Shown piece by piece: positions 4,595 to 62,907 of a stretch of DNA of 64,000 nucleotides. How positions within the stretch are numbered: the first letter of the stretch is position 1; each line of letters opens with the position of its first letter. The DNA is from Bryobacterales bacterium (GTDB lineage: Bacteria; Acidobacteriota; Terriglobia; Bryobacterales; UBA6623): assembly GCA_026713545.1 (NCBI GenBank), contig JAPOOG010000032.1:8379-72378 (forward strand), read 5' to 3'. Under the pieces are notes generated by a model. The model worked only from the letters and a program-made list of their open reading frames with translations. It did not search any database and was not told the DNA's origin. Both the position numbers and the translations under genes were made by a program.

Positions 4595-5814
4595 ATCGAA
4601 TCGCGTCGATCGAGGCGTTTTCGATCAGGCTGCCTCGTGACCCGGAAGCGGTGACGGGGACTGCGGGGTCGCCGACCACGCTGGCTGCCGGCGGGTTTGA
4701 CTACCGCTGGTCCGAAACGAACAGCACGCTCTATTCGGTGAATTTCGAAGCCGCCTTGGTCAAGGTGACTTTGGAGTCAGGCCTGGCCGGATGGGGCGAG
4801 GCCCAGGCGCCTCTCGCTCCGGATGTCGCGTGCCTGATTATCGAGCAATTGCTGCGCCCGGCGGTCGAGGGCCGGGATTTTGACGGCTCTCCCGACACGG
4901 TGACGTCGCTGCGGAATCGGATGTACTCGGCCATGCGCGTTCGCGGTCAGACCGGCGGCTTCATGCTCGATGCGATTGCCGGAGTCGACATCGCCCTGTG
5001 GGACCTGGCCGGCAAGTCTCGTGGGACTTCGGTCGCGGACTTGCTGTCATCTTCCGCCCCCAAGAGCAGGATTCCGTGCTATCTCTCGGGGCTCCCGGGC
5101 GCAACGAACGCCGAGCGGGTGGCGCGGGCGCGGGAGGCCTGGGGCGCGGGCTTTCGCATCTTCAAGCTGTTCTACGACCGCACGGAAGACGAGCTCTTCG
5201 ATCTCATCGACCGCCTGCGGGAAACCTTGGGGCCGGACGTTTCCATTGCGGTGGACGCTCTCTGGCGGCTTGACGGAACCTCGGCGGGTGCCTTCGGGAA
5301 AAAACTTGACGATCGCGGAGCCCTCTGGCTCGAGTGCCCGCTGGCTCCGGAATCCCCGGCCGGCCACGCCCATTTGGCGGCCGGGATTCGCACGCCGATC
5401 GCATTGGGCGAGAGCTATCGTACGCGCTACGAGCTGGCTCCGTTCCTGGCGTCCGGCTGCGTCCGGTGGTTGCAGCCTGACATCGGCCGTATGGGCATCA
5501 CCGAAGCGGCCGGCCTTGCGCGGGAAATCGGCGTTGGCGCTCGCATCGTCCCCCACATCAGCATTGCCATGGGACCGCAGATTGCCGCGGCCTTGCAATT
5601 CGCCGCTTCGTCGAGGAATGTCGGGCTTGCCGAGTACAACCCGGTCGTCTTCACGGTTGCCAACCGCTATCTCGATCGGCCCCTCGAAATCGACGGCGCC
5701 GAGTACCTCGTGCCCGACGGTCCGGGCCTGGGCGTCGAACTCGACGAGTCGGCAGTAAGGGCGGTCGCGGGCAGAGTGAATGTCACCCCGGCTGTCGTGT
5801 CTCGTGATTCGTGA
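4585..5814 (+). CDS. Enolase-superfamily (MR/MLE, sugar-acid dehydratase-like) enzyme, cytoplasmic
   Basis: 'GWGEAQAP', 'AGVDIALWDLAGK', 'LWLECPL' motifs and no signal peptide. GTG start overlaps the upstream gene by 10 nt. Confidence 0.85.
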   Translation: MPLDRIASIEAFSIRLPRDPEAVTGTAGSPTTLAAGGFDYRWSETNSTLYSVNFEAALVKVTLESGLAGWGEAQAPLAPDVACLIIEQLLRPAVEGRDFDGSPDTVTSLRNRMYSAMRVRGQTGGFMLDAIAGVDIALWDLAGKSRGTSVADLLSSSAPKSRIPCYLSGLPGATNAERVARAREAWGAGFRIFKLFYDRTEDELFDLIDRLRETLGPDVSIAVDALWRLDGTSAGAFGKKLDDRGALWLECPLAPESPAGHAHLAAGIRTPIALGESYRTRYELAPFLASGCVRWLQPDIGRMGITEAAGLAREIGVGARIVPHISIAMGPQIAAALQFAASSRNVGLAEYNPVVFTVANRYLDRPLEIDGAEYLVPDGPGLGVELDESAVRAVAGRVNVTPAVVSRDS

Positions 5815-8684: not shown

Positions 8685-11543
8685 TCAGTACACGTATAAG
8701 AATTCGTTGGAGTTGAACAGCGCCAGAGCCAGATCGGCCCAGGCGCGTATGCCGGGCGGCATCTCGCTCGGGTGCGGATTGTGCTCGTAAGGGCCGGTAT
8801 AAGCGGGCTGAACGAATTCGAAGCGTTCTCCGGTCAGCTCGCTTGTGATGGTGTGGACGATGTCCGTCGGCAATCGTCGGGCAGCAGCGGGGTTCCCCTC
8901 AAGGTGCGCCGTCATCTCCGCAACGAACTCTTCCGTCCAATCGCGCTCCTCGCTCGTGGGATCGCGGCCGAATGCCAGTCGAAATGCGCTCTCGACGCGC
9001 ATCCCCGCGGGCAAGGAATCCAGGCGCTGCGCCATGATCAGCGCCATGTCGCGCGACAGATCGGCATTGAGCAGGGCGAACGCCTGGGTCGGCACGGTGG
9101 ATGATTCCCGGCGCTCGCAGGTCAGGTCCGGATTTGCGCCGTTGAACACCTCGATCATGGGGTCCATCATGCTGCGCCGCTGGAAACTGTAAACGGAACG
9201 GCGGTTGCGTCTCCGCCGGGTCGGCTCGGCTTCGTAGACCGGCTGGAGGGTTCCCATCGCATGCCTCGGCTGGTGCGCTACTTCCGGATTGATCTGGGCG
9301 TACGTGCCGGGTCCGCCCGCGAAGTCGCTCAACTCGCCGGCAACCGCCATCATGCTGTCGCGAATTTCCTCGGCTTCCAGCCGGCGGGGTGAGAACCGCG
9401 CCAGGTAGATGTTCTCGGGGTCGAGCTTGTCCACCAACTCACGGTTCTGGTGATCGCTGGCTCGCCGGTACGCCTCCGAATACAGGATCACTCGATGGAC
9501 TGCCTTTACGCTCCAGCCCTGGTCAATGAAGAATACCGCCAGCCAATCCAACAGCTCCGGGTGCGAGGGCTTCTTTCCCATCTTTCCGAAGTTGTTCGCG
9601 TTCGAAGCCAGCCCGCGCCCGAAATGGTATTGCCAGACGCGATTGACCAGAACCCGGCTGGTCAGCGGATTGTCTGGATCCGCGATCCAGCGGGCCAGCG
9701 CGCTTCGCCGTCCGCTCAGGCGGTCCGGGATCTGCGGAGCCGGCAGATCGGAATAGCGCGCCACCGCTTCGAGCACACCTGGTGAAACCTCCTGCCCGGG
9801 CGCCTGGATGTCGCCTCCGGCCAGAACATGGGTTTTTGCTCGGGCATAGTCCCCCGGCTGCAAGTAGCTGTTCCGATACCTCAGGGCCTCCCATTCCTGG
9901 ACATAGCCGTTGCTGACCGTCATGGCCAGAGGCTCGAACCGCAACACGGACAGCTTGTGCATGATCACTCGCTTCCGCAGCAGCTTGAGCAGCTCAGCCT
10001 GCTCACTGCTCAGGTAACGCTGCAGCGTAGTGGTCCGGGCGTTGGCGGCGGCTTCGGGTCCCTTTGCCCGCGCGAGTCGCTCGCGGGCCGCTTCGTGGAG
10101 GTCGTGCATCCGGCGTTCCAGCTCTTCCAGGCGGGTCTGGATAGGCTTGCGGCCCTGGTCGAAGCCTTCCGTCGATTCTGACGGCAGGAACGGCAACGGG
10201 CGCCTCGCGAAAGCCGTCTTCGCGAAGACGGCTTGCATGCGGTAATAGTCCTTGGTGGGGATCGGGTCGAACTTGTGGTCGTGGCAGCGGGCGCAAGCCA
10301 GCGTCACCCCCAGGAACGACTGCCCCACGTGGTGCGTCACGTCGTCCAGGAAGAGCTGCCGGGTCACCGCCGCGACGGCCATGCCGGTATGCTCCCAAGG
10401 CCCCATCCTGAGAAAGCCGGTCGCAAGAATCGCCTCGGGATCGTCCGGGAACAACTCGTCGCCGGCGATCTGCTCGAGCACGAAGCGGTCGTATGGCTTG
10501 TCGCTGTTGAATGCGCGGATGACGTAGTCCCGGTAGCGCCAGGCATTGGGCCGCACGAAGTCATTGGAGTAGCCGGCGGTATCGGCGTAGCGCGTCACGT
10601 CGAGCCAATGACGCCCCCAACGCTCGCCATAGCGGGGAGAGTCCAGCAAGCGCTCGACGACTTTCTTGTAGGCCCCTTCGGATTCGTCGTCCAAAAAAGC
10701 CTGCACCTCTCCCGGAGTCGGAGGCAGGCCCGTCAGGTCGAACGTCAAACGCCGGATGAGCGTTCTCCTGTCGGCTCTCGGAGCCGGTTCGAGTCCCTTC
10801 TCTGCCAGACGGGCCAGGACAAAGCTGTCCACCGGAGTCTGCACGGCAGCCGGGTCTATCCTGCATTTCTCCCCACGCGGCGAGGTGAAGTGCGTGAGAG
10901 GGCCGTCAGGACGAGGCGCGAGCCGCTTGGCGCGCGCAGGCGTACTTGACCGTACGTCGAGCACGGCACGCAAGCGCAACGAAGTCATGGCGGTCGTATC
11001 GCGTGCTTCGGCCGTCGGGTGGGGAGAAAGGCAGGATATCCCTTCGGTTGGGGGCTCGACGCGCTTCACCGGCCGGAACGCCCAGATGTCGCCTTCCTCG
11101 AAATTCCACTTCGCCGTCGAGCGCCCATCCGCATAAGGGGCTCCCGCTGTGATCCATGCGCGGAATGCGTCCCGGGTCTCTTGGGGAAGCTGCTTCTCCG
11201 GCCCTCCGGGTGGCATGGCCAGCTCGCCGGCATGATCTATGGCCGACATCAGCAAGCTGTCGCCGGGCGATCCGCTCTCGATGGCCGGGCCTCGCTGACC
11301 GCCCTTCAGTGCGGCGTCCCGAGTGCGCAGGTCAAGATTGGCGAAGACGTTCCCTTCGCCGTGGCAGCCCAAGCATTGCTGCTTCAGCACCGGCTGGATG
11401 GTGTTGCGGAACAGTTCGGCAGGAGAATCCGCGGCGGCGGCTGAAGTCGCTCCAACCAAGCCGGAAAGGAAAATCAGGCCTGACCGCAGGAAACGAAGTC
11501 CTGACCCCGCACGGACCGCTTTCGATCGGTATCGTCGCCGCAT
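8685..11543 (-). CDS. PSCyt1 / DUF1549 (PSCyt2) / DUF1553 (PSD1) multidomain protein, carrying an in-frame repeat-element insertion
   Basis: Heme-like 'CLGCHG' near the N-terminus, then DUF1549-like 'PVDSFVLARLAEKGLEPAPRADRRTLIRRLTFDLTGLPPT', 'CARCHDHKFDP', and a DUF1553-like C-terminal part. Start set at the ATG at 11543 ('MRRRYRSK...'); the ORF is open to 11615. Confidence 0.85.
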   Translation of the reverse strand: MRRRYRSKAVRAGSGLRFLRSGLIFLSGLVGATSAAAADSPAELFRNTIQPVLKQQCLGCHGEGNVFANLDLRTRDAALKGGQRGPAIESGSPGDSLLMSAIDHAGELAMPPGGPEKQLPQETRDAFRAWITAGAPYADGRSTAKWNFEEGDIWAFRPVKRVEPPTEGISCLSPHPTAEARDTTAMTSLRLRAVLDVRSSTPARAKRLAPRPDGPLTHFTSPRGEKCRIDPAAVQTPVDSFVLARLAEKGLEPAPRADRRTLIRRLTFDLTGLPPTPGEVQAFLDDESEGAYKKVVERLLDSPRYGERWGRHWLDVTRYADTAGYSNDFVRPNAWRYRDYVIRAFNSDKPYDRFVLEQIAGDELFPDDPEAILATGFLRMGPWEHTGMAVAAVTRQLFLDDVTHHVGQSFLGVTLACARCHDHKFDPIPTKDYYRMQAVFAKTAFARRPLPFLPSESTEGFDQGRKPIQTRLEELERRMHDLHEAARERLARAKGPEAAANARTTTLQRYLSSEQAELLKLLRKRVIMHKLSVLRFEPLAMTVSNGYVQEWEALRYRNSYLQPGDYARAKTHVLAGGDIQAPGQEVSPGVLEAVARYSDLPAPQIPDRLSGRRSALARWIADPDNPLTSRVLVNRVWQYHFGRGLASNANNFGKMGKKPSHPELLDWLAVFFIDQGWSVKAVHRVILYSEAYRRASDHQNRELVDKLDPENIYLARFSPRRLEAEEIRDSMMAVAGELSDFAGGPGTYAQINPEVAHQPRHAMGTLQPVYEAEPTRRRRNRRSVYSFQRRSMMDPMIEVFNGANPDLTCERRESSTVPTQAFALLNADLSRDMALIMAQRLDSLPAGMRVESAFRLAFGRDPTSEERDWTEEFVAEMTAHLEGNPAAARRLPTDIVHTITSELTGERFEFVQPAYTGPYEHNPHPSEMPPGIRAWADLALALFNSNEFLYVY
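10860..11036. mobile_element. 177-bp TIR element, copy A, inserted in-frame in the PSCyt/DUF1553 gene
   Basis: Termini are CCTGCATTTCTCCCCAC ... GTGGGGAGAAAGGCAGG and the flanks are TAT/aTAT. Homologous to the copy at 55475-55651 and, partially, to 44489-44666, 30366-30450, 58036-58576 and 61880-61996. Confidence 0.8.
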
Positions 11544-25571: not shown

Positions 25572-25938
25572 CGGGGCGGGATGAAACCCCGCTCGGCGCC
25601 GAGAACGGCCCGCGCAGCACCGTGAAAGGCGTTGCGCCCGGCTGACAAGCCGCGGCCAGGGAGCCTATGGCGCCTGTTCGACCAAGGAGCAACGCAGTTC
25701 AGCCGGGATGCATCGCCGCTTGAATGCAGCAGAGCTCGTGCCGCGGGCTGTTGGCTTTCAGGTCTTCGCCAGCAGCCGCTTTGCGAAGCCGCCCTCCTGG
25801 GAGTGCTCGAGTGCCCTCTGGGCGCTTGCCCGCATCCCCAGCCCGAACGGCGGCTCCAACAAGAGCCGCCCCGAGCCCGGCAACCCGTTCTCCACGAAAC
25901 ACGAGACACGAGACACTGTTTTTTTGTTGCCTCTTGGT

Positions 25939-25963
25939 ACTGAAGCCCTTCAGTCTTTTTTTC
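25939..25963 (+). terminator. Terminator-like hairpin + T-run carried on a repeat module
   Basis: ACTGAAG-CCC-CTTCAGT followed by CTTTTTTT. The same module occurs inverted at 54541-54566. Confidence 0.45.
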
Positions 25964-26150
25964 CCGCCCCGGTCGGCATAGCATGAGCACAGAGAGGCTA
26001 ACGAACGACCTGCCGTCGGCGCGGCGCTCGCCTCTGGCGGCTGCCCCCCACGACGGCAACACGGCTTTCCCCGCCGTGGATGCGCAAGGGTCGCGCCACC
26101 GGAAACTGCCGTCCGGGCCACTGCGCCAGCCGGCAAGTCACCGTTCTTCA

Positions 26151-27687: not shown

Positions 27688-27775
27688 CCGGAAACATTCT
27701 CTTGATCAAGCGGCATTGACAGCGGTCCGGATGTTTCCTGCTGGTATGATCCGTGTGCGGGCGGAGAAAAAAATA
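27685..27775. repeat. 85-89 bp hairpin element, copy 3 (intergenic, directly upstream of paralog 3)
   Basis: 'TGACCGGAAACATTCTCTTGATCAAGCGGCATTGACAGCGGTCCGGATGTTTCCTGCTGGTATGATCC...GGCGGAGAAAAAA'. It starts at the stop codon of paralog 2 and ends about 12 nt before the AGGAG RBS of paralog 3. Confidence 0.8.
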
Positions 27776-27787
27776 AAAGGAGCGGCC

Positions 27788-29056: not shown

Positions 29057-29092
29057 ATGAAATGCGGCCGACTCGATCGATGGAGAAACCCT

Positions 29093-30352: not shown

Positions 30353-30365
30353 CCGGTCGTATGAG

Positions 30366-30683
30366 CCTGTATTTCTCATCACGTGGCGAGACGAAGTGCG
30401 TGAGAGGGCCGTCAGGACGAGGCGCGAGCCGCTTGGCGCGCGCAGGCGTAGCGGCCATATTGCCTCCTTTGGCCTTCGGGTCACGAAACATGAGACACGG
30501 CCTTTACGGTTCACCGCCCGTCAGACATTTCTTTCGAGAACGAACCAGGCCCCCCGCCAGGGTTTTTCAAGAATCACGGCCTTGTACGCAAGCCGCCTTG
30601 GAGCGACAGCCGTACCGCCCGCCTGGGTTTTGGGGTCACGAATCACGCGACACGAGACACGAAACACGGCCTTTTAATGCAGG
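30366..30683. repeat. Long-form composite element B (one arm of the 177-bp element + S-core module + heptamer words)
   Basis: Starts CCTGTATTTCTCATCACGTGGCGAG...GCCGCTTGGCGCGCGCAGG (arm shared with copies A and D). Continues with the S-core 'CCGTCAGACATTTCT' at 30496-30568, then 'CACGAATCACGCGACACGAGACACGAAACACGG', and ends ...TTAATGCAGG. Fills almost the whole 361-bp intergenic gap. Confidence 0.75.
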
Positions 30684-43598: not shown

Positions 43599-44495
43599 CT
43601 ACGTTTTGCGGATGTCTCTGTGAGAGACCTTCACTTCGCATCCAGCGCCCGTGAGGTTGCGGCCGACCGCATCCGCGATCATCACCGAGCGATGCCGGCC
43701 CCCCGTGCAACCGAATGCAATCGTCAGGTAGCTCTTGCCCTCACGCACGTAATGGGGGACGAGATACAGCAGCAGGTCGGAAATCCGGCCGATGAACTCC
43801 CCGGTCTGCGGAAACGACCGTACGTACCGAATGACCTTCGGATGCTTGCCGGAAAGATTCTTGCAACCCGGCACATAGTGCGGGTTCGGCAGGAACCGAA
43901 CATCGAAAACCAAGTCGCTGTCGCTTGGCAAGCCGTGTTTGAAACCGAAGCTGTTCACCGTGACGAGCAGTTGCGGTCTGTCTTGAGCGCTCTGGAATCG
44001 CGTTACGATCAGACGCCTCAGATCGTGAATGTTGAACTGCGACGTATCGAGAATCAGATCCGCAAGCTTTTGAATGGATCGTAGCGCCTGCCTCTCCGCC
44101 CGGATGCTGTTGAGGACGGACGTACCCGTGCCCAGCGGGTGTGGTCGACGTGTCTCACTGAAGCGCCTTTGTAGAACGTCGTCCGCGGCTTCAAGAAACA
44201 GCAGAAACACACGATTCTGCCTCCTCAGTTCCTGAAAGATTCCGGGAAACTTCTTGAGGGCCCGGCCTTCACGAATATCGACCACCAGAGCGGCCCGGGA
44301 GATTTCCGGAGAGTGTCTACAGAGCTCGGCGAAGGTCGGGATCAAGTCAATCGGCAGATTGTCGACGGCATAGAAACCCATATCCTCAAAGACCTTCAGC
44401 ACAGAGACTTTGCCCGAGCCGCTAAGTCCGGTCAGGATGACGAGTTCGTATGCCCCGCCCGGCGCTTCCCCCGCGCTGCTTGTCTCAGCCGTCAT
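43599..44495 (-). CDS. rapZ: RNase adapter protein RapZ (P-loop NTPase, YhbJ family)
   Basis: Walker A 'GLSGSGKVSVLKVFEDMGFYAVDNLP' and C-terminal 'IAFGCTGGRHRSV'. Confidence 0.9.
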   Translation of the reverse strand: MTAETSSAGEAPGGAYELVILTGLSGSGKVSVLKVFEDMGFYAVDNLPIDLIPTFAELCRHSPEISRAALVVDIREGRALKKFPGIFQELRRQNRVFLLFLEAADDVLQRRFSETRRPHPLGTGTSVLNSIRAERQALRSIQKLADLILDTSQFNIHDLRRLIVTRFQSAQDRPQLLVTVNSFGFKHGLPSDSDLVFDVRFLPNPHYVPGCKNLSGKHPKVIRYVRSFPQTGEFIGRISDLLLYLVPHYVREGKSYLTIAFGCTGGRHRSVMIADAVGRNLTGAGCEVKVSHRDIRKT

Positions 44496-44666
44496 TTCTC
44501 ACCCACCTGACGGCAGAAGCACGCGATACGACGTTCATGACTTCGTTGCGCACGCTTACTGTGCTCAATGTTAAGGGCAAGTACACCTGCGCGTGCCAAG
44601 CCGCTCGCGCCACGTCCTGACGGCCCTTTCAGGCACCTCACCTCCCCACGTGATGAGAAAGGTCGG
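44489..44666. repeat. Degenerate copy C of the 177-bp TIR element, between hpf and rapZ, overlapping the rapZ start codon
   Basis: 'CCGTCATTTCTCACCCACCTGACGGC...GCCAAGCCGCTCGCGCCACGTCCTGACGGCCCTTTCAGGCACCTCACCTCCCCACGTGATGAGAAAGGTCGG' aligns along its length with copy D. The CAT (ATG of rapZ) at 44493-44495 lies in the left terminus. Confidence 0.7.
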
Positions 44667-53985: not shown

Positions 53986-54924
53986 GCCTCCAGTTTATCG
54001 TCGAAGCTGCTGAATTCCGTCTCCTCAGACATGGATGTCAACTCCCAGCATGGTTCATTCACCGCGAATGGACACGAACCAACACGAATGAGGGGCGTTT
54101 TCGCCGCGGAGGCGGGAGCTGTGCGCCAATTCGCGTCCACAGTAGCGGGTCCAGCCCGGAGGTCGACGGGAGCGGCGGTGAACGGCGCTCGTCGTGAGGC
54201 CGACCGCGAGCGGCGGACGGCGCGCCGGCACTGGCACAGATGCAATATTTTTTGCCGGGAAATAGTGGGCAATACCGGGAAATAGTGGGCAGGCAAGCAG
54301 TGGCTGGGCTGCGGGCGTGGCAGCCTGACCTGCATCTCTACCCGCCCGGCGTCCGAAGCACGCGAGGTAAAGGCCGTGATTCGTGTTTCGTGATTCGTGA
54401 AAAGCATAAAAGCCGTGATTCGTGTCTCGTGAAAAACCTTAAAAGCAGTGGCTAGTGAAAGCCTTGAAAGCTCTGATTCGTGACCCGCACCGACTGTGCC
54501 TCGTTGCCTCCCTGTCCTCATGCTATGCAGGCCGGGGAAGAAAAAAAAGACTGAAGGGCTTCAGTACCTAGAGGTATTAAAAAAACCGTGATTCGTGTTT
54601 CGTGATTCGTGAAAAACACTGGTGAGGCCTCGTTCGCTCCAGAAGAAATGTCTGACGGCCGTTGAACCGTAAAGGCCGTGTTGCCGTCGTGGGGGGCAGC
54701 CTCTACAGCGAGCGCCTCGCCGTTCACGGTGCTACGCGGGCCGTTCTCGGCGCCAAGCAGGATTTCACCACGGACTGCCAGCTCACCGGGGAACTTCCTA
54801 CATTGCGCCGACACTCCGCAGACATGAAGCTCGTTACCTCACCGCAGACTTCCAGCCGCGCCTGACGAAAATACCAAGCAGCTTTCACCTCGCCTGCCCT
54901 CTCGCAGCACCTATCTGCTAACTT
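53986..54924. repeat. Mosaic intergenic repeat zone 4 (inverted relative to zone 1; includes a 20-bp x2 repeat, heptamer words, the hairpin module and an S-core)
   Basis: Components are 54170-54250 (reverse complement of roughly 26200-26290), 54255-54294 (CCGGGAAATAGTGGGCA x2), 54371-54480 (GTGATTC/GTGTTTC words), 54518-54625 (reverse complement of roughly 25891-25985), the S-core at 54611-54680, and 54700-54790 (reverse complement of roughly 25585-25640). Confidence 0.8.
54541..54566 (-). terminator. Terminator-like hairpin + T-run (minus strand) on a repeat module
   Basis: The plus strand reads AAAAAAAAGACTGAAGGGCTTCAGTAC, which on the minus strand is a hairpin followed by T8. Confidence 0.4.
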
Positions 54925-55368
54925 GTGCATAAGGACATGGGCTCCGGACTCGAAAGCAGGCTCACGCGTGTGATCGCCCTCATCGTGATCGGGGCGCTTC
55001 TTCCGTGGCCGGGAGTCCTCAGCGCCACCGCTTCCGACGACGACCGCTGCGCCCGCCACGGCCGCAGTTGCGAATGCGTCGAGATGTGCCGGCGCGAAGA
55101 GAAAGAGCACCACACGAAAGCCGAGGCGCCTAGCTGTCATCGCGAATCCAAACAGCGCGCAGCACCACCCAAGCCGGAAACGGGTTGCCGCATGACAAGT
55201 TGCGGCTCTGACGACCCGGCCCGGGCTCAAAGCTCCGACCCCTCGACACCACCGCTTCCGCAGCACGAGCTCGCCGCCCCCAGGGCTTCCGAACGAGCCC
55301 GGCCCGCCGACGCCGAAACAGAGGCTCCGGCGTTTGCGGCTCCGCCTCACCCTCCCCCCAGAGCCTGA
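54925..55368 (+). CDS. Small exported Cys/His-rich hypothetical protein upstream of a TonB-dependent receptor
   Basis: GTG at 54925 or ATG at 54937. TM/signal 'VIALIVIGALLPWPGVLSA', then 'CARHGRSCECVEMCRREEKEHH...SCH...GCRMTSCG', then a Pro/Ala-rich tail. GC3-rich in the first half. Coding status is moderate. Confidence 0.5.
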   Translation: MHKDMGSGLESRLTRVIALIVIGALLPWPGVLSATASDDDRCARHGRSCECVEMCRREEKEHHTKAEAPSCHRESKQRAAPPKPETGCRMTSCGSDDPARAQSSDPSTPPLPQHELAAPRASERARPADAETEAPAFAAPPHPPPRA

Positions 55369-55461
55369 CCTGATTCCGCCGCATCGTCAACGGACGGCCC
55401 GCTAACGGCGGGCCCGGTTTCGGCTATTCGCAAGCCGTTCAGTTTGGGGAGGTTTCCATTC

Positions 55462-57930
55462 ATGAAGCCCTTAGCCTGCATGTCTCACCACCCGACGGCC
55501 GCAGCACGCGATAAGACCGCCATGACTTCGTTGCGCTTGCTTGCCGTGCTCGACGTACTGTCAAGTACACTTGCGCGCGCCAAGCGGCTCGCGCCTCGTC
55601 CTGACGGCCCTCTCACGCACTTCACCTCGCCGCGTGGTGAGACATGCAGGCTAGCCGGGTTCGTATTGCATTTGCTGTTTTGCACCGTTGCCGCGGCAAG
55701 CGTGACCGTTGTCGTGGAAGATCCCGGCGGTGACCGCATCGCGGGCGCGCGAGTCGCCCTGCAAACTTCTGTGGGGCGTGAGATCGAAACGCGCCGTACG
55801 TCCGACGCCGGTGAAGCCTCCTTCGAGGGAAATCAAGCCGGCCGCATCGTCGAGGTCGCCGCCGACGGTTTCGAGCCCCAGCTCGTTCTCGTCCCCGACG
55901 ACGAAACGCTCGTTGTCCGCCTGGCGATCGCGACGGTGGCCACCACGATCGAAGTCGAAGCCGAAGCGGAGCCCACCGTCGCCGTCCAGGAAACCGACGC
56001 CTCCGAGCTGGCAGCGATCCCCTCGACCGATCTCATCGAAAATCTGCGCGCCACCCCGGGAGTGAGCGTGCTGCGCCGAGGCGCCACCAACATCGAACCG
56101 GTCGTCGAAGGCCTGCGCGAAACCCAGCTCGCCATGGTCGTCGACGGCACCCGCACCTTCGCCGCCGGCCCTGCCCGCATGGACTCCGAGCTGAGTCACG
56201 TCGAGCCGGGCCACATCAGCAGCGTCGAAGTCGTCACCGGTCCCTACGCCCTGACCAAGGCCGCCGGCGCATTCGGCGCCATTCTGGTGACTTCGCCACA
56301 GGTTCCCCGCTTTGACCGCTGGCAGTTCGGAGGCGGAACCGGCAGCGGCTATCGCAGCAACGGCTCCGGCCGCTACGGACGAGCTCGCCTGTTCGCGGGA
56401 GACAACCGCTTCGGATTCAGCTTGCGCGCCGCGGGCAACCAGGGCAATGACTACCGGGCCGGCGACCGTGGACCGATCAAGGACATCACCATCCCCGGCG
56501 ACTTCAGCAATCACCAGTTCGGCGGCAAGCTGCGCTTCAACCCGGCCAGCAAGCAGGAGATCGCGCTTGGCGGTTTCTACGACGAGCAGACCGGAGTCGA
56601 CTACCCCGGCCGGCTGCTCACCGCCGAGCACTTCATTCTGCGATCGTTCTCCGGCAACTACTACGCCGCCAACCCGGCAGACGGCATCACCGCCATCAAG
56701 GGCAACCTCTACCTCAACAAGAAAAGCCACCGCATGAGCAACCGCGAAAAGCCAACAGCGCTCCCGATGATGGGCCGAAAACCTCCCTTCGCACTCGACG
56801 TAGCACTCCCCACGGAAGCCGATACGCTGGGCGGCTCCGGCAGTGTCGAGTTCGCCCTCACGGAGACGTGGCGGCTGCAGACGGGCTTCGACTTCTACCA
56901 CCTCAGCCAAGACGCGCAACGCTTCGTCGCCCGTCAAGACGACGGCCGGCTGCTCTTCAGCGATGCCGTATGGCCCGACGCCACCATCAACGACCAGGGC
57001 GTTTACGTGCAGACCGTGGGCGCGTTCGAGCGCGGCGAGGTTGCCGCCGGCGCGCGCGCCGATTTCGTGCAGGCCGACGCCGGACGCCCTTCGGACTTCT
57101 TTCTCGCCAACGCCGGCCACGGGATCGACCGTAACGAAACGAATTTCAACGCCAGCCTCGCGGGCCGCTACCGCCTCATCGACGGCGTCTCTCTCTCCGC
57201 CGGAGTGGGCAACGTGCGGCGCACGGCGAACGCGCTGGAGCGCTTCTCCGACCGCTTTCCGAGCACCCGTTTCCAGATCGCAGCCGAGTTCATGGGCCTA
57301 CCGACGATCCAGCCGGAATCCAGCACGCAAGGCAACCTGAACGTCGACGTTACGGTCCGCGACTTCCGGTTCAGCGCCGGCGGTTTCCTCCGCCGCATCA
57401 ACGACTACATCACGGTCCGCCCCGACCCCGACCTGCCGAAACGCCTGCCGCTCAGCCCTGCCGTCGTCTTCCGGTACATCAACGGCGACCACGCGACGTT
57501 CCGCGGCTACCAGTTGGGCGCGGAATACCGCGGTTCGCGCTGGTTCCAGTTCCGCAGCCGGGCCGCCAAGGTCATCGCCGATGACCGCGAGCTCAACGAG
57601 CCCGTCCTCGGCATCGCGCCCTTCGAGCTCTACTCCAGCGTACGCATCCTCGAACCGTCAGGGCGATTCTGGAGCGAGTATTCCGTCCGCAATGTCTGGG
57701 ACCAGCAGCGGGTTTCGATCAGACGCCTCGAAACCCCGTCACCCGGCTTCAGCACGCACGACCTGCGTATTGGAGTGGAAGTACATAAAAAGATCAAGCT
57801 GCACTTCGGACTCGAGAACCTGGGCGACAAGCACTATTTCGAGCACCTGAACTCGCCCAACCCATTCACTCGCCAACGGATCCCCGAGCCCGGCCGCACG
57901 GTTTACCTCAGCCTGACCACCGACTGGTGA
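55462..57930 (+). CDS. TonB-dependent receptor (CarbopepD_reg-like domain + plug + barrel) with the 177-bp element inserted in-frame in its signal-peptide region
   Basis: GGGGAGG RBS then ATG at 55462. 'VTVVVEDPGGDRIAGARVAL', plug 'VSVLRRGATNIEPVVEGLRETQLAMVVDG', and a C-terminal '...VYLSLTTDW'. Confidence 0.85.
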   Translation: MKPLACMSHHPTAAARDKTAMTSLRLLAVLDVLSSTLARAKRLAPRPDGPLTHFTSPRGETCRLAGFVLHLLFCTVAAASVTVVVEDPGGDRIAGARVALQTSVGREIETRRTSDAGEASFEGNQAGRIVEVAADGFEPQLVLVPDDETLVVRLAIATVATTIEVEAEAEPTVAVQETDASELAAIPSTDLIENLRATPGVSVLRRGATNIEPVVEGLRETQLAMVVDGTRTFAAGPARMDSELSHVEPGHISSVEVVTGPYALTKAAGAFGAILVTSPQVPRFDRWQFGGGTGSGYRSNGSGRYGRARLFAGDNRFGFSLRAAGNQGNDYRAGDRGPIKDITIPGDFSNHQFGGKLRFNPASKQEIALGGFYDEQTGVDYPGRLLTAEHFILRSFSGNYYAANPADGITAIKGNLYLNKKSHRMSNREKPTALPMMGRKPPFALDVALPTEADTLGGSGSVEFALTETWRLQTGFDFYHLSQDAQRFVARQDDGRLLFSDAVWPDATINDQGVYVQTVGAFERGEVAAGARADFVQADAGRPSDFFLANAGHGIDRNETNFNASLAGRYRLIDGVSLSAGVGNVRRTANALERFSDRFPSTRFQIAAEFMGLPTIQPESSTQGNLNVDVTVRDFRFSAGGFLRRINDYITVRPDPDLPKRLPLSPAVVFRYINGDHATFRGYQLGAEYRGSRWFQFRSRAAKVIADDRELNEPVLGIAPFELYSSVRILEPSGRFWSEYSVRNVWDQQRVSIRRLETPSPGFSTHDLRIGVEVHKKIKLHFGLENLGDKHYFEHLNSPNPFTRQRIPEPGRTVYLSLTTDW
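55475..55651. mobile_element. 177-bp TIR element, copy D (in-frame in the TonB receptor 5' end)
   Basis: CCTGCATGTCTCACCAC ... GTGGTGAGACATGCAGG, with flanks TTAG / cTAG. Removing 180 bp gives 'MKPLAGFVLHLLFCTVAAASV', a normal signal peptide. Confidence 0.8.
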
Positions 57931-58035
57931 GACTCATCACGGAGCCCCATCGCCGGGTCTTCACTCCGGGAGCGCCGCTTTTCACGCTTCGGCGGAATCG
58001 GCAACCTCGCGAGACAGTCGCGAGAAAGGGATCAT

Positions 58036-58576
58036 CCTGCATTTCTCACCACCGACGGCCGAAGCACACGAGGAAAAGGCCGTGGTTAGTGGTTAGTGGT
58101 TAGTTATTAGTGAAAAACCTTTGGCGGGGGCTTGGTCCGCTCCAGAAGAAATGTCTGACGGCCAGCGAACCGTAAGGCCATGATTCGTGCTTCATGACCC
58201 GAGGGCCGAAAGAGGCGAGATGGCCGCTAGCAGCCCGTGGTGAAAGTCACGCGGGCGGCGTTACGCGCCTTGGGGTCGATTGCGCAACGTGTGGCTGCTC
58301 CAGTAACGCAGCACCGCGCTCTCCGAGCAACCGAGCGGAAGGGGCGCGTGACCCGTTGGGCGACGGACATTTGCAGTCGTCGGCTTTGTCGTTCGTCGGA
58401 GGAGATCACCCGGACCGCCATGCTCCTCACTCCGCGCCGAGCAACCGCAGGAGCCCGCCGCGCCTTCCACGGGACTTCCACCACGGACTGCTAGGCCTGC
58501 GCGCGCCCAGCGGCTCGCTCCTCGCCCTGACGGCCCTCTCACACACTTCACCTCGCCGCGTGGTGAGAAATGCAGG
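58036..58576. repeat. 541-bp composite element E bounded by both TIRs of the 177-bp family and flanked by ATCAT direct repeats
   Basis: Left end CCTGCATTTCTCACCAC (58036). Right end GTGGTGAGAAATGCAGG (ends 58576). ATCAT lies immediately outside both ends. The interior carries GTGGTTA heptamers (58081-58112), an S-core (58112-58182) and extra modules. Confidence 0.75.
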
Positions 58577-58705
58577 ATCATCACAGGAACCGCAACGGCT
58601 CTTCGTGCTTTCGCCTGGCTGTGGCGCTCTGCCGCTCTCTTCTGCAAGGCCACAGAAGAGCTCGACGATCTATAGGAATCTGCGACTCGCCTTGCCAAGC
58701 AGGCT

Positions 58706-60418
58706 TCAACCGCCCGCTGACGGCTTCCAGCCCGGCCCACGCACGAAGCGTCCCGGAGTGGCGCCGGTGTGTTCGCCGTCTTTGAGAACGTGGCCGCCAT
58801 TGACGAAGACGTGGATCACGCCGGTCGAGAACTGGTGCGGCTCGGTATAGGTGGCGCGATCCTGAATGGTCTCGGGGTCGAAGGCGACGATGTCGGCGTA
58901 ATACCCCTCCTTGAGCATTCCCCGGCGGTCAATCTTCAAGACCTGGGCCGGAAGCGCAGACATCCTGTGCAGCGCCTGCTCAAGGCTCAGCACTTTTTCC
59001 TCACGAACGTACTTGGCCAGGATGCGCGGGTAGCTGCCGTAGGCGCGGGGGTGGATGTGGGTCTTGAGAAAGATGCCTTCGGGCGCTACCGCAGGCGAGT
59101 CCGTACAGAAGCTCATCCAGGGCAGCGGGATCTTCTTGCGGATGTTTTCTTCGGCCATCGAGAAACCGACCGACATGACGCGGCTGTCGTCTTTGATGAT
59201 CAGGTCCATCGCCGCTTCTTCGGGTGAGACGCCCCATAGCTCGGCGATCTCCGCGACGGTCTTGCCGTTCAAGTGCTTGAGTTCGGGTTTCTGCAGCCCC
59301 ACGACCAAGTAGCCGGTAGGACCTCCGACGCCGAGATAGAGGTTTTCCCAGTCATCGGCCGGGGTCAGCATCTCACGGGCGATCCGTTTGCGGAACGCGG
59401 GATCTTTCAGCCGTCGGACTCGCTCCTGCTGTCCGCCCTCGCCGACCCACGGCGGCATCGCAGCGGTCAGGCCGCCGGAACCGGCGTTGTAAGGATAGGT
59501 GTCGGCCGTGATCCGGAGGCCGTCGGCACGGGCCTGCTCGATCATGGCGACCGCCTTGTCGAGATTCCCCACGTTCTCTCGGCCTACGGCCTTCAAGTGA
59601 TAAACCTCGGCTCGGATGCCCGCCTCCTTAGCGATGGTGATCACCTCCGCGATGCCGTCGAGCAACCGCGGCCCGGAGAAGCGCATGTGGGAGGCGTAGA
59701 GGCCATCGTACTCCGCAGCTATCGAGGCGAGCGCGACCAACTCATCCGTCTTGGCATAAGGGCCGGGCACTTGCATCAGAGCCGACGCGACTCCCATCGC
59801 GCCTTCCTCCATGGCGGTCCGAGTAAGCGCCTGCATACGGGCCAGTTCCTCGGGCGCGGGCGGACGGTTCTCCTGACCCAACTCGTGAATGCGGGCGGTG
59901 GTAGCGCCGATGAACGAGGCCACGTTGGGGGATACACCTCGCGTCTCCAAGTGTTGGAGGTATTCGGCCAACGTGGTCCAAGCGATGTCGTACGGCAGGT
60001 CATCGCCTCGCTCCTGCATGTCCTGCTTGACCGCCTCGTTCACGGGTCCCATCGAACGGCCCTCGCCCATGACTTCGAGCGTGATGCCCTGATAGATGTC
60101 GCTCTGGGCGCGTCCATCGACCACGATGGTCTCCTGAGAGTGGCTCATCATGTTGATGAAACCGGGAGCGACGGCCAGTCCGCTCACATCGATTTCCGTC
60201 TTGGCTCCGTGATCTGCGAGTTGACCAATGGCCGCTATCGTATCGCCGCAGATAGCGACATCAGCCTGAACCGGCGCGTCGCCGCTTCCGTCGTAGACCA
60301 GGCCGTTACGGAGGATGACATCGTACTCCGCCGGAGCAGAACAAGAGGCGCCGAGGACCAGTCCCGCAACAGCCCCCGACAGCAGGCATCCATGGGTAAA
60401 GGAACGTTTATTCAGCAT
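58706..60418 (-). CDS. D-aminoacylase / N-acyl-D-amino-acid deacylase family amidohydrolase (secreted or lipoprotein)
   Basis: Start at 'MLNKRSFTHGCLLSGAVAGLVLGASCSA'. Also 'YDVILRNGLVYDGSG', 'IDVSGLAVAPGFINMMSHS', 'VFVNGGHVLKDGEHTG'. The upstream part of the ORF (60419-60703) is repeat DNA. Confidence 0.85.
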   Translation of the reverse strand: MLNKRSFTHGCLLSGAVAGLVLGASCSAPAEYDVILRNGLVYDGSGDAPVQADVAICGDTIAAIGQLADHGAKTEIDVSGLAVAPGFINMMSHSQETIVVDGRAQSDIYQGITLEVMGEGRSMGPVNEAVKQDMQERGDDLPYDIAWTTLAEYLQHLETRGVSPNVASFIGATTARIHELGQENRPPAPEELARMQALTRTAMEEGAMGVASALMQVPGPYAKTDELVALASIAAEYDGLYASHMRFSGPRLLDGIAEVITIAKEAGIRAEVYHLKAVGRENVGNLDKAVAMIEQARADGLRITADTYPYNAGSGGLTAAMPPWVGEGGQQERVRRLKDPAFRKRIAREMLTPADDWENLYLGVGGPTGYLVVGLQKPELKHLNGKTVAEIAELWGVSPEEAAMDLIIKDDSRVMSVGFSMAEENIRKKIPLPWMSFCTDSPAVAPEGIFLKTHIHPRAYGSYPRILAKYVREEKVLSLEQALHRMSALPAQVLKIDRRGMLKEGYYADIVAFDPETIQDRATYTEPHQFSTGVIHVFVNGGHVLKDGEHTGATPGRFVRGPGWKPSAGG

Positions 60419-60834
60419 TGCGGAGAAGTGTATCACGCGGGGGGTCGCAGACAGCGAATAAAGGCCGTGATTCGTGATTCGTGTCTCGTGAAAAACATTG
60501 GTGGGGGCCTGGTTCGCTCCAGAAGAAATGTCTGACGGCAGATGAACCGGAAAGGCCGTGTGTCGTGTCAAAAACCCGTGTTTCGTTTCTCTTGTCTCGT
60601 GTTTCGTGAAGCGAAAGGCGGAAAGGACGTGATGCGTGATGCGAAAAACCTTTGGGTGACGGACGTTTTTGTTCCGAGACCACGAATGGACACGAATCAA
60701 CACGAAGGGAGGGGTGTTTTATTGCGCCGGCGGTGATGCGGGCAAGCGCCCAGAGGGCACCCGCGCGCTACCAGGGCTCCACGCCTTCCACGGGATTTTT
60801 TACCACCACCACGGGCTGTTATGTCTTTGGGATA
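60419..60834. repeat. Mosaic intergenic repeat zone 6 (heptamer words, S-core, 'CACGAATGGACACGAA' module, 'ATGCGGGCAAGCGCCCAGAGGGCAC' module)
   Basis: S-core at 60490-60560. Word tracts at 60466-60490 and 60556-60660. The 60681-60790 stretch shares modules with 54060-54100 and, inverted, with 25790-25850. Confidence 0.75.
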
Positions 60835-61734
60835 TCACATCTGTCCGTCAGGAGGGTCCACGACCACATCTTCGCAAGCGTGCCGGAGCCTGACGGCGCC
60901 GCCTTGAAGAAAGACAGCGAGGGCCTGCTCGTAGAGGGCGCGTTGAATCCGGATTTGACCGCTCCAGCAGCCGAGTTGCTGATAGCGCCGGATCGCACGG
61001 ACCAGGCTCTCGCGCCCGACTCCCTCGAAACAGGAAGCTTCCTTTTCCGCTATCTCTTCCGGGGCGCTCTGTTGAACCCAGCGGCGTGCCTGGCGATACA
61101 CCTGCATGAAGGTCTTTGCGAGAGGGCGTCTGAGGAACTCGCGCGTCGCCATAAGAGAACTGAACGCCACCTCAGGCATGGCCTCCCCCACAGAGGCGAC
61201 AACGCGGGCGATGCCGTCGTGCTCAAGTTGCTGCGGAGCCGGTCCCTGTTGATGGATGAAGTCACCTTGTCCGGATCGAAACGCTTGATCCATTGCTTCC
61301 GCATCGCCGGCGTCGACCAAGTTTACCTTGTCCCAATCGACACCTTGCACCTGGGCGGCGTACCGCAGCATGAGAAGCGGTTGACGGCCATGATCGGCGA
61401 GAAGGGTCAATCCCTCCAGCTTTTTCCAGTTGAAGTCCCTGTCACGCCGCCTGCCTGCAAGGAAGAACCCGTCCCGGCGATTAATCAGAGCAAAATGCAC
61501 CGGCAGACCGCTCTCGCCACGCTCCATGGGACCGAAGTTCGATCCGGGAGCTGACTGCATGATGTCCACAGACCCGTTTTGCAACAAGGCGTGTGAGCGC
61601 ACTCCGGGCGGCAGGACATCGTATCGCGATTCAATGCCCTCCTTGCGCAGAAAACCCGCGGCGATCGTCGAGATCAGCGGGCTGTAGAATGCCGAGTGGC
61701 GGGCAACCATGAGGCGGATCCGGGGTCGAGGCAT
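60835..61734 (-). CDS. NMT1/THI5-like (SsuA/TauA-type periplasmic-binding-fold) protein, no signal peptide
   Basis: 'IRLMVARHSAFYSPLISTIAAGFLRKEGIE' resembles the N-terminus of the NMT1/ABC substrate-binding fold. GGAG RBS. Family call is moderate. Confidence 0.65.
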   Translation of the reverse strand: MPRPRIRLMVARHSAFYSPLISTIAAGFLRKEGIESRYDVLPPGVRSHALLQNGSVDIMQSAPGSNFGPMERGESGLPVHFALINRRDGFFLAGRRRDRDFNWKKLEGLTLLADHGRQPLLMLRYAAQVQGVDWDKVNLVDAGDAEAMDQAFRSGQGDFIHQQGPAPQQLEHDGIARVVASVGEAMPEVAFSSLMATREFLRRPLAKTFMQVYRQARRWVQQSAPEEIAEKEASCFEGVGRESLVRAIRRYQQLGCWSGQIRIQRALYEQALAVFLQGGAVRLRHACEDVVVDPPDGQM

Positions 61735-61749
61735 GGGCAGGGCTCCTAA

Positions 61750-61996
61750 CCTGCATTAAAGGCCGTGTTTCGTGACTCGTGACTCGTGTCTCGTGTCTCG
61801 TGAAAACCGTTGGCGGGGGTCTAGTTCGCTCTCGAAAGAAATGTCTGACGGTCGGTGAACCGTAAAGGGCGTGTTTCGTGAACCGAGGGGTGAAGGAGGC
61901 GATATGGCCACTACATCTGCGCGCGCCCAGCGGGGCTCACCTCGCCCCGACGGCCCTCTCACGAACTTCGCCTCGCCACGCGGCGAGAAATACAGG
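61750..61996. repeat. Long-form composite element F (heptamer words + S-core + one arm of the 177-bp element)
   Basis: Starts CCTGCATTAAAGGCCGTG. Words GTGTTTC/GTGACTC/GTGTCTC at 61764-61802. S-core at 61802-61873. Arm '...GCGCGCGCCCAGCGGGGCTCACCTCGCCCCGACGGCCCTCTCACGAACTTCGCCTCGCCACGCGGCGAGAAATACAGG'. Begins 15 nt upstream of the ATG at 61734. Confidence 0.75.
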
Positions 61997-62146
61997 CCCA
62001 ATGTCATGGGAATTTCCCGGCAGCCGGGCCTTTGCCAAGCAGCGCTTTCCATCCACGAGACTAACATGCGCGGCGCTGAGAAAAACGGCAGTTGTCTATC
62101 CGGTTCGGGGGCCGGTCTGAAACAATAAAGTCTGCCCGCCGGACTC

Positions 62147-62860: not shown

Positions 62861-62907
62861 CGATGGGCACCCAGTCACCTGCTGCCGCCTGGGCAGGGGA
62901 AACACAT

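What the first reader, a model, noticed from the sequence alone, without database searches (positions are those of the whole stretch)
58081..58112. Short tandem 'word' cassettes with different unit sequences occupy the same slot in a conserved repeat scaffold
The scaffold reads AAAGGCCGTG-[words]-GAAAAAC-(S-core). The words in that slot differ between copies:
- GTGGTTA x4 at 58081-58112
- GTGATTC/GTGTTTC/GTGATTC at 54371-54400 and 54586-54616
- GTGATTC/GTGATTC/GTGTCTC at 60466-60490
- GTGTTTC/GTGACTC/GTGACTC/GTGTCTC/GTGTCTC at 61764-61802
- the complement CACGAATCACGCGACACGAGACACGAAACACGG at 30636-30668

The flanks are conserved while heptamer identity and number vary. This pattern could reflect slippage-prone contingency tracts, arrays of protein-binding half-sites, or a templated diversification process. 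I cannot distinguish these from the sequence alone.
Basis: seen in the sequence. Interest (0 to 1): 0.7.

Follow-up and report, generated by a model that had tools for sequence, protein, structure and literature searches.

The report
Variable 7-base repeats inside a MITE
The variable "word" tracts are a 7-base microsatellite carried inside a small non-autonomous transposon family that litters the intergenic DNA of a sponge-symbiont acidobacterium; this is a real and tidy example of a known kind of repeat, not a new mechanism.

Summary
In 128 of 140 distinct copies of the conserved core (window plus related genomes and metagenomes), a 7-nt tandem array ends 30-36 nt upstream of GAAATGTCTGACGG. 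It usually starts at AAAGGCCGTG and ends at AAAAC. It holds 0-5 parsed words (up to about 9 by eye). There are two word classes: NNTCGTG (118 arrays) and NNTAGTG (7), with 2 mixed.

The scaffold lies inside a MITE-like element with 17-nt terminal inverted repeats (CCTGCATTTCTCACCAC) and YTAR flanks. It shows presence/absence polymorphism between related Bryobacterales genomes. A 1734-bp IS1380-family insertion sequence has the same ends.

Arrays change faster than their flanks:
- Orthologous sites differ by exact multiples of 7 nt (7, 14, 21).
- Of 42 copy pairs with near-identical cores, only 3 share the same array.
- The word class can switch with no change in the core, which fits exchange between copies.

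The same cassette also precedes other modules, so it is a general connector in a mosaic repeat system. I found no structured RNA, promoter or link to particular genes.

Best reading: slippage plus recombination between copies, acting on a microsatellite embedded in a mobile repeat. This is a new member of a known kind, of modest interest.

The parts
58082..58112 (+). The flagged array: GTGGTTA x3, GTTATTA, GTG. This is the A-class (NNTAGTG) filling of slot 1.
58074..58119 (+). Whole cassette: anchor AAAAGGCCGTG, four words, spacer AAAAACC.
58120..58177 (+). S-core of this copy (TTTGGCGGGGGCTTGGTCCGCTCCAGAAGAAATGTCTGACGGCCAGCGAACCGTAAGG).
58036..58576 (+). Complete TIR-bounded element holding the flagged array. 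Its ends are CCTGCATTTCTCACCAC and GTGGTGAGAAATGCAGG, and it is flanked by ATCAT on both sides.
54329..54691 (+). Mosaic copy: degenerate left TIR (54329-54345); cassettes at 54369-54405, 54408-54438 and 54441-54462 (the last is A-class with one word); hairpin/T-run module around 54536-54568; cassette 54579-54617; S-core 54618-54681.
60460..60650 (+). Copy without TIRs: cassette 60460-60496, S-core 60497-60560, then further degenerate heptamer cassettes (60551-60650).
61750..61996 (+). Element with its left end truncated to CCTGCATT: cassette 61758-61808 (5 words), S-core 61809-61873, second slot with one word (61864-61885), RBS-like D module, right module with TIR at 61980-61996.
30366..30683 (-). 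Element on the minus strand: cassette 30633-30675 (4 words, followed by the ACCCCAAAACC module), one-word cassette 30561-30583, S-core 30496-30560, right module with TIR at 30366-30382.
55475..55650 (+). Basal 176-bp form of the same MITE. It has the same TIRs and right module but no cassette and no S-core. Flanks are TTAG/CTAG. It lies just upstream of the TonB-dependent receptor gene.
10860..11035 (-). Basal 176-bp MITE copy.
44489..44666 (+). Degenerate basal MITE copy.
25860..25965 (-). Hairpin/T-run module, then a cassette (CAGTG TCTCGTG TCTCGTG TTTCGTG, 25893-25916), then a G-core instead of an S-core.
5796..5813 (+). Isolated remnant of a slot-2-type cassette (CGTGTCTCGTGATTCGTG followed by ACCCGAGG).

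Best explanation
The word cassettes are a 7-nt microsatellite (a variable-number tandem repeat) embedded in a modular, non-autonomous transposable repeat of a sponge-associated Bryobacterales (Acidobacteriota) bacterium.

**Element structure.** The usual order is: left TIR module, cassette, S-core, second cassette, RBS-like module, right TIR module.
- The cassette is AAAGGCCGTG, then (NNT[C/A]GTG)n, then AAAACC.
- The S-core is about 60 nt.

**Mobilisation.** The ends (CCTGCATTTCTCACCAC) match those of an IS1380-family insertion sequence in the same genomes. That IS presumably moves the element in trans into YTAR sites.

**How the variation arises.**
1. Replication slippage or unequal exchange within the array changes the number of words.
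2. Homologous recombination or gene conversion between the many dispersed copies replaces whole arrays. It swaps the CGTG-class and AGTG-class fillings and the neighbouring modules.
3. The same cassette recurs at the junctions between different modules, so it probably also acts as the homology patch where modules are shuffled.

**Shown:**
- the repeat architecture and the TIRs;
- the IS partner;
- presence/absence polymorphism;
- indels in multiples of 7 nt at orthologous sites;
- arrays changing faster than their flanks;
- class switches without any change in the core.

**Inferred:**
- the slippage and gene-conversion mechanisms themselves;
- trans-mobilisation by the IS1380 transposase;
- that the arrays have no dedicated cellular function.
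For: **Slot conservation and vocabulary.**
- 128 of 140 cores have an array ending 30-36 nt upstream. Word number is 0-5 (mode 4). Classes are 118 C, 7 A, 2 mixed (raw listings).
- The commonest filling is ATTC-TTTC-TCTC-ATTC. This points to descent from a master copy.

**Mobile-element features.**
- 173 TIR pairs occur in 744 kb, in size classes of 176-177, about 200 and 270-295 bp.
- Flanks are dominated by CTAG, TTAG, TTAA and CTAA.
- Filled versus empty sites: L073 against L049 (two sites), L025 against L086, and L064 against L019.
- A 1734-bp IS is present as two 99.8%-identical copies (L047, L085) with CTAG flanks and the same terminal 16 nt.
- It encodes a 487-aa transposase: PF13701 E=1.8e-147; NCBIfam IS1380 at 391 bits against a cutoff of 180.

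**Array hypervariability.**
- Orthologous pairs: L017/L034, 1 versus 4 words (a 21-nt indel); L042/L054, 3 versus 4; L006/L060, 4 versus 2.
- Of 42 copy pairs whose 60-nt cores differ by at most 1 nt, 28 differ in word number, 11 in word identity, and 3 are identical.

**Class exchange.** A-class copies do not cluster by core sequence. L019 (A-class) has a core identical to L030 (C-class).

**Cassette as a connector.**
- 276 arrays of at least 3 units occur in 744 kb, against 0-1 for control tetramers.
- 150 of them lie more than 400 nt from an exact core match.
- Cassettes are followed by the S-core, the G-core, other cassettes, or the R, D or ACCCCAAAACC modules.
- Neighbouring arrays are always co-oriented, 163 of 163.

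**Not an assembly artefact.** The element appears in long-read chromosomes (OZ242366, OZ241991, OZ244625), in an Illumina MAG (JAPPLB01), and in the Aplysina aerophoba metagenome MKWU01 and JGI contigs (PMC5649159).

**Precedents.**
- A minisatellite inside a bacterial MITE (PMC4596501).
- Over-represented, length-variable intergenic heptamer repeats attributed to polymerase slippage (PMC4692102).
Against: - The core tetramer [C/A]GTG of every word, the anchor and the spacer are very uniform, and arrays are almost always pure for one class. That could reflect selection for a binding site rather than shared ancestry plus homogenisation.
- The empty sites are not clean. L049 has CTGTTTGGTTAAGG where a simple TTAA target would be expected. 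Two other sites have several unmatched bases. Only 55 of 161 elements have identical 4-mers on both sides. The target duplication is therefore not rigorously shown.
- The IS and the MITE share only the terminal 16 nt or so.
- No IS1380 copy lies in the window itself.
- One orthologous pair (L001/L037) has identical arrays, so the rate of change is not extreme.
- No read-level data were available.
Confidence: 0.75

Rival explanations
1. The heptamer arrays are functional arrays of protein-binding sites. The binding protein could be a nucleoid-associated protein, a regulator or a recombination factor. The two recognition classes would be CGTG and AGTG, and copy number would tune occupancy.
For: - The last five positions of each word are near-invariant, while positions 1-2 vary.
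- Arrays are pure for one class in 125 of 127 cases.
- The anchor and spacer are conserved.
- Arrays in a cluster always share one orientation.
- The words are AT-richer than the 62% GC genome.
Against: - Word number ranges from 0 to about 9 with no preferred spacing.
- The arrays are dispensable for the most abundant (basal, 176-177 bp) form of the element and are absent from the IS ends.
- The restricted vocabulary and the conserved word order are equally explained by descent from a master copy.
- Rare singleton variants hit different word positions.
- No candidate protein was identified.
Confidence: 0.12
2. The arrays are contingency (phase-variation) tracts. Gain or loss of a unit would switch or tune expression of the neighbouring gene.
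For: - The arrays are intergenic and vary in length between related genomes.
- Some copies lie just upstream of gene starts, for example 61750-61996 before the methyltransferase gene and 30366-30683 before the PD40-repeat gene.
Against: - Elements also lie between convergent gene ends (58036-576).
- In the window, orientation relative to the neighbouring genes is mixed.
- The neighbours are unrelated metabolic genes.
- No sigma-70-like promoter was found in 54000-62200.
- The array is not between promoter hexamers or inside an ORF.
- The RBS-like module and its downstream reading frame are broken by a 10-nt indel variant of the right module.
Confidence: 0.05
3. The scaffold encodes a structured small RNA or cis-regulatory RNA, and the heptamers form part of it, for example as a protein-sponge RNA.
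For: - The roughly 60-nt core is highly conserved.
- Other bacterial repeats (BOX, Correia) are transcribed (PMC3184786).
Against: - No Rfam family reaches its gathering score anywhere in the window.
- RNAalifold on 92 distinct cores gives about -1 kcal/mol on either strand, with no consensus helices.
- No terminator-like site lies inside the elements.
Confidence: 0.05
4. A dedicated templated diversification system, retroelement-based or DGR-like, rewrites the slot.
For: Whole-array class switches occur with zero change in 60 nt of flanking core (L019 versus L030).
Against: - The arrays are non-coding.
- Variation is mainly in unit number.
- The substitutions are not adenine-specific.
- There is no template/variable repeat pair.
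- Ordinary gene conversion between hundreds of homologous copies is enough to explain the switches.
- I did not run a systematic search for a reverse transcriptase in the window.
Confidence: 0.02

Closest known systems
BrickBuilt MITE of Porphyromonas gingivalis (PMC4596501)
   Same: A bacterial MITE with small inverted-repeat ends, 'leader' and 'tail' parts, and an internal tandem repeat whose copy number differs between copies. It is always intergenic.
   Different: The BrickBuilt unit is 23 nt, against 7 nt here. BrickBuilt has 19 copies; here there are hundreds. Here there are two word classes, several interchangeable cores, and an identified IS1380-family partner. There is no sequence similarity.
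BOX elements of Streptococcus pneumoniae, and the mosaic repeats NIME (Neisseria) and BIME (E. coli) (review PMC3184786)
   Same: These are modular intergenic repeats built from a few module types, with a variable number of an internal module. The modules recombine into mosaics, and the elements are non-autonomous and dispersed.
   Different: The variable BOX module (boxB) is about 45 nt (from my own knowledge). NIME and BIME connectors are 20-40-nt palindromes, not microsatellites. The host phylum is different and the sequences are unrelated.
Intergenic heptameric simple repeats of Xanthomonas (GGGAATC) and Nostoc/Calothrix (GGGGAYT; the STRR heptamers) (PMC4692102)
   Same: The unit is 7 nt. 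The repeats are strongly over-represented in intergenic DNA, vary in length and sequence between close relatives, have no demonstrated function, and are explained by polymerase slippage.
   Different: Those repeats are G-rich and can form G-quadruplexes, and they are not described as parts of a TIR-bounded transposable element. The words here (WYTCGTG, NNTAGTG) are not G-quadruplex-forming and sit in a fixed slot of a MITE.
IS1380-family insertion sequences
   Same: The autonomous element (L047:1764-3497) encodes a transposase that passes the NCBIfam IS1380 equivalog cutoff. It has terminal inverted repeats starting with CC and 4-bp flanks. From my own knowledge, these features fit the family description.
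   Different: The object in the finding carries no transposase. It shares only the terminal 16 nt or so with the IS.

Membership tests
MITE (non-autonomous TIR transposon) | Terminal inverted repeats at both ends | tested here: met
   The ends are CCTGCATTTCTCACCAC and GTGGTGAGAAATGCAGG. There are 173 pairs in 744 kb. The window element is at 58036-58576.
MITE (non-autonomous TIR transposon) | Small, without a transposase gene, and present in many dispersed copies | tested here: met
   Sizes are mostly 176-300 bp. There are 8 copies in the 64-kb window and copies in at least 4 genomes plus sponge metagenomes.
MITE (non-autonomous TIR transposon) | An autonomous element with matching ends | tested here: met
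   L047:1764-3497 and L085:2166-3899 have the same terminal 16 nt. The transposase matches NF033539 (IS1380) at 391 bits, cutoff 180.
MITE (non-autonomous TIR transposon) | Target-site duplication | tested here: inconclusive
   YTAR 4-mers dominate the flanks, and 55 of 161 elements have identical 4-mers on both sides. CTAG and TTAA are palindromic, so they cannot be told apart from an extended TIR. The empty sites are imprecise.
MITE (non-autonomous TIR transposon) | Insertion polymorphism between related genomes | tested here: met
   Four filled/empty site pairs.
Microsatellite / VNTR evolving by slippage | Head-to-tail short units whose number varies between copies | tested here: met
   TRF period 7; 0-5 parsed words, and about 9 in L064.
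Microsatellite / VNTR evolving by slippage | Indels in whole units at orthologous loci | tested here: met
   Indels of 21, 7 and 14 nt in L017/L034, L042/L054 and L006/L060, with both flanks aligned.
Microsatellite / VNTR evolving by slippage | Length heterogeneity among reads of one population | not testable with these tools
   No reads are available. Short-read contigs from other samples break inside the element before reaching slot 1.
Contingency locus (phase-variable simple repeat) | The repeat lies in an ORF or promoter spacer of a specific gene, so that unit changes switch expression | tested here: not met
   The arrays are inside the mobile repeat. No promoter hexamers were found. In the window the orientation is mixed and the neighbours are unrelated.
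Diversity-generating retroelement | A coding variable repeat with adenine-specific differences from a template repeat | tested here: not met
   The arrays are intergenic, differ in unit number and show C/A class changes. There is no template/variable pair.
Diversity-generating retroelement | A reverse transcriptase nearby | not tested
   Only 8 window proteins next to the elements were scanned, and none is a reverse transcriptase.
Known RNA family | A match to an Rfam model, or a conserved secondary structure | tested here: not met
   Rfam gave 0 hits. Alifold gave about -1 kcal/mol on both strands.
Mosaic intergenic repeats (BOX/NIME/BIME type) | A few module types combined in variable order and number | tested here: met
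   The cassette is followed by the S-core (119), G-core (43), another cassette (40), D (28), ACCCCAAAACC (28) or R (14) modules. Orthologous sites differ in module content. This is a resemblance in organisation only; there is no sequence homology to those families.

The most novel reading that the evidence does not exclude
The cassettes may be recognition arrays for a dedicated DNA-binding or recombination protein, with two specificities (CGTG words and AGTG words). That protein would actively drive module exchange or organise the chromosome of these sponge symbionts. Under this reading, the near-absolute class purity, the fixed anchor and spacer, and the strict co-orientation are selected features rather than by-products of ancestry.
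Probability: 0.07. Interest if true: 0.65.

Novelty: new member of a known kind. Interest (0 to 1): 0.3.

Why it matters
- **Genome content.** The window alone carries 8 TIR-element copies or derivatives in 64 kb, so this repeat system takes up a noticeable share of the intergenic DNA in these symbionts.
- **Assembly.** It breaks short-read assemblies. All seven contigs from other samples end inside it.
- **Other mobile DNA.** IS110-family elements are found inserted in it.
- **Practical use.** The 7-nt arrays are ready-made strain-typing (VNTR) markers for an uncultured sponge symbiont. The module mosaic is a natural record of recombination between dispersed repeats.
- **What it does not do.** It reveals no new mechanism. 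Slippage, MITE mobilisation and gene conversion are all well established.

Tried and rejected
- **Known RNA.** An Rfam scan of the whole window gave nothing.
- **tRNA/tmRNA.** None in the window.
- **Conserved RNA structure of the S-core.** RNAalifold on 92 distinct copies found none on either strand.
- **Promoter or terminator in the elements.** There were 0 promoter-like sites, and none of the 6 terminator-like sites lies inside an element.
- **Small conserved ORF starting at the RBS-like GAAGGAGG-N5-ATG/TTG module.** Rejected. Many copies carry a 10-nt indel variant of the right module (AAGCGG versus TTTTTCCTCCGCCCGG) that shifts the frame.
- **A-class arrays as a separate element lineage.** Rejected. 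Their cores are interspersed among C-class cores.
- **Cassettes as inverted stems of a hairpin.** Rejected. Neighbouring arrays are never in opposite orientation, 0 of 163.
- **Strain-level comparison at the window's own loci.**
  - Exact-protein look-ups for three flanking genes found nothing.
  - The methyltransferase is on seven short contigs that are 99.9-100% identical and stop before slot 1.
  - A unique-flank pattern found nothing in JGI metagenomes.
- **Contig L125.** It matches the window at 98% up to the cassette at 25893 and then diverges. This could be a rearrangement at the cassette or a chimeric short-read assembly, so I did not use it.
- **IS1380 transposase in the window.** No tblastn hit.

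Full report
**1. Observation**

The window (62% GC) has five copies of a conserved core of about 60 nt. The invariant stretch GAAATGTCTGACGG lies at 54645, 58148, 60525 and 61838 (+) and at 30518 (-). That is 6 matches at up to 2 mismatches against 0.64 expected.

Each core has a period-7 tandem array upstream (alignment; TRF).
- CGTG spaced every 7 nt three times in a row occurs 16 times against 0.02 expected.
- The AGTG equivalent occurs only at 58081-58112.

The finding needs three corrections:
- The flagged array is GTGGTTA x3, then GTTATTA, then GTG, at 58082-58112.
- Two of the cited arrays (54375-54400 and 30637-30668) are separate cassettes that are not next to an S-core.
- More arrays exist at 25893-25916, 5796-5813, 54408-54438 and 60551-60650.

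**2. The slot is conserved far beyond the window**

All were in four Bryobacterales (Acidobacteriota) MAGs.

A scan of metagenome contigs found 40 more stretches. Most were in MKWU01, the Illumina assembly of the Aplysina aerophoba sponge microbiome (PMC5649159).

Pooling everything gave 140 distinct cores:
- 128 have an array ending 30-36 nt before GAAATG, and 123 of these end at 33-35 nt.
- 111 arrays start with AAAGGCCGTG.
- The parsed number of words after the anchor is 0-5, with a mode of 4. One copy, L064, has about 9.
- 118 arrays are purely NNTCGTG, 7 are purely NNTAGTG, and 2 are mixed.

The commonest filling is ATTCGTG-TTTCGTG-TCTCGTG-ATTCGTG.

**3. What the scaffold is**

Printing the repeated regions of the window shows that the scaffold lies inside an element with 17-nt terminal inverted repeats: CCTGCATTTCTCACCAC at one end and GTGGTGAGAAATGCAGG at the other.
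- The copy holding the flagged array spans 58036-58576.
- A basal 176-bp form lacks both cassette and core. It occurs at 10860-11035, 55475-55650 and, degenerate, at 44489-44666.

In 744 kb of window plus loci there are 173 TIR pairs. Their size classes are 176-177, about 200 and 270-295 bp. Their flanks are dominated by CTAG, TTAG, TTAA and CTAA.

Related genomes show filled versus empty sites at four places. The empty sites are not clean, so the target duplication remains only probable.

A 1734-bp element is present twice at 99.8% identity (L047, L085).
- It has CTAG on both sides and begins and ends with the same 16 nt.
- It encodes a 487-aa DDE transposase.
- That protein passes the NCBIfam IS1380 equivalog cutoff (391 bits against 180) and matches PF13701 at E=1.8e-147.

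The scaffold is therefore a MITE-type derivative that shares its ends with an IS1380-family insertion sequence.

**4. How the words vary**

At orthologous sites with both flanks aligned, arrays differ by whole units:

| Pair | Words | Indel |
|---|---|---|
| L017 / L034 | 1 vs 4 | 21 nt |
| L042 / L054 | 3 vs 4 | 7 nt |
| L006 / L060 | 4 vs 2 | 14 nt |
| L001 / L037 | identical | none |

Among 42 pairs of copies whose 60-nt cores differ by at most one base, 28 differ in word number, 11 differ in word identity, and only 3 are the same. The array therefore changes much faster than its surroundings. That is the signature of slippage or unequal exchange.

The AGTG class is not a separate lineage of elements. 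L019 (A-class) has a core identical to L030 (C-class), and L012 is 2 nt from C-class copies. Four parallel C-to-A changes with no change in the flanks are implausible as independent point mutations. Replacement of the whole array from another copy explains them better. With hundreds of homologous flanks available, ordinary gene conversion is enough.

Orthologous sites also differ by loss or gain of whole modules and cassettes.

**5. The cassette is a general connector**

Arrays of at least three units occur 276 times in 744 kb, against 0-1 for control tetramers. Of these, 150 lie more than 400 nt from an exact core match.

They nearly always begin with AAAGGCCGTG or AAAAGCCGTG and end with AAAAC, AAAAA or ACCC. 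What follows the cassette varies:
- the S-core;
- a related G-core (for example, window 25860-25890 on the minus strand);
- another cassette;
- the RBS-like D module, the right TIR module, or an ACCCCAAAACC module.

Cassette-plus-core units can themselves be tandemly duplicated (L120). Neighbouring arrays are always co-oriented, 163 of 163.

This organisation resembles BOX, NIME and BIME mosaics (PMC3184786) and the minisatellite-bearing BrickBuilt MITE (PMC4596501). The 7-nt unit matches the known over-representation of length-variable intergenic heptamer repeats (PMC4692102).

**6. Function**

I found no sign of a dedicated function.
- There is no Rfam hit.
- The core has no consensus RNA structure.
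- There are no promoter-like hexamers, and no terminator-like sites inside the elements.
- The apparent RBS-plus-ORF is frame-broken in many copies.
- The neighbouring genes are unrelated: a TonB-dependent receptor, an amidohydrolase, an NMT1-like binding protein, a methyltransferase, a class-V aminotransferase and a PD40-repeat protein.
- The window's elements lie between convergent, tandem and divergent genes in either orientation.

The basal element and the IS both lack cassettes, so the arrays are not needed for mobility.

Specific protein binding cannot be excluded. It is the main rival and the basis of the novel reading.

**7. Verdict**

The three-way interpretation is partly right: slippage is supported, while the contingency-locus and DGR readings are not.

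The object is a microsatellite-bearing, modular MITE family of sponge-associated Bryobacterales. I found no description of this family in two targeted literature searches, but it belongs to a well-known kind of element.

Interest is modest. It is useful for strain typing, for solving assembly problems and for studying repeat-mediated recombination in uncultured symbionts.

Noticed in passing
L034:6378-7995 (near-identical copies in L031 and L040); L033:4097-5550 and L008:6554-7978: IS110-family (DEDD) transposase genes sit inside MITE copies. One type is inserted between ...ACTGTTCA and AGTACGCC in the middle of the basal MITE. Another is inserted immediately after the 17-nt TIR of an S-type MITE. 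The MITE seems to serve as a preferred IS110 target, as REP elements do for other IS110 members.
   Followed up: partly
window 54536-54568 and 25935-25965 (minus strand); many loci: A recurrent module, GAAAAAAAAGACTGAAGGGCTTCAGTACC (a hairpin next to an A-run), lies just upstream of cassettes. It precedes 27 of the 418 arrays examined. Read on the other strand, it looks like an intrinsic terminator.
   Followed up: no
window 26151-26206 and 54255-54284; L029, L041, L053: There are 10-nt tandem arrays (GTTCACCATT x5.6; CCGGGAAATA x3; GGGAAATCGT/GGGAAATGCC in the loci), often directly upstream of heptamer cassettes. This is a second kind of short tandem repeat in the same mosaic regions.
   Followed up: no
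window 25860-25890 (minus strand); L030, L036, L041, L053: An alternative 'G-core' follows the cassette in place of the S-core. In the window copy it contains a perfect 8-bp hairpin, GGCGGCTC-TTGTTG-GAGCCGCC. I did not test it for covariation.
   Followed up: no
L088-L094 versus window 61815-63682: Seven short-read contigs carry the window's methyltransferase gene. They come from the Aplysina aerophoba assembly MKWU01 and from ENA, Logan and JGI samples. They are 99.9-100% identical to the window. All end inside or just beside the element at 61750-61996, which shows how this repeat fragments assemblies.
   Followed up: yes
L125:1-798 versus window 25893-26692: A JGI contig matches the window at 98% up to exactly the heptamer cassette and is unrelated beyond it. 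This is either a rearrangement breakpoint at the cassette or a chimeric assembly.
   Followed up: partly
window 24560-30356: Four tandem paralogous genes lie about 1.3-2.2 kb apart, with 60-75% DNA identity. The last one is a class-V aminotransferase. Conserved intergenic blocks of 54-102 nt lie at 23618-23719, 23868-23921 and 27671-27772.
   Followed up: no
window 55444-55663: The longest ORF of the TonB-dependent receptor gene runs through a basal MITE copy. This gives a spurious N-terminal extension (ARAKRLAPRPDGPLTHFTSPRGE). The real start is probably just after the element, near 55665-55680.
   Followed up: partly
L120:3030-3172: The cassette-plus-S-core unit is tandemly duplicated, giving a higher-order repeat of about 92 nt that contains the 7-nt repeat.
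   Followed up: no
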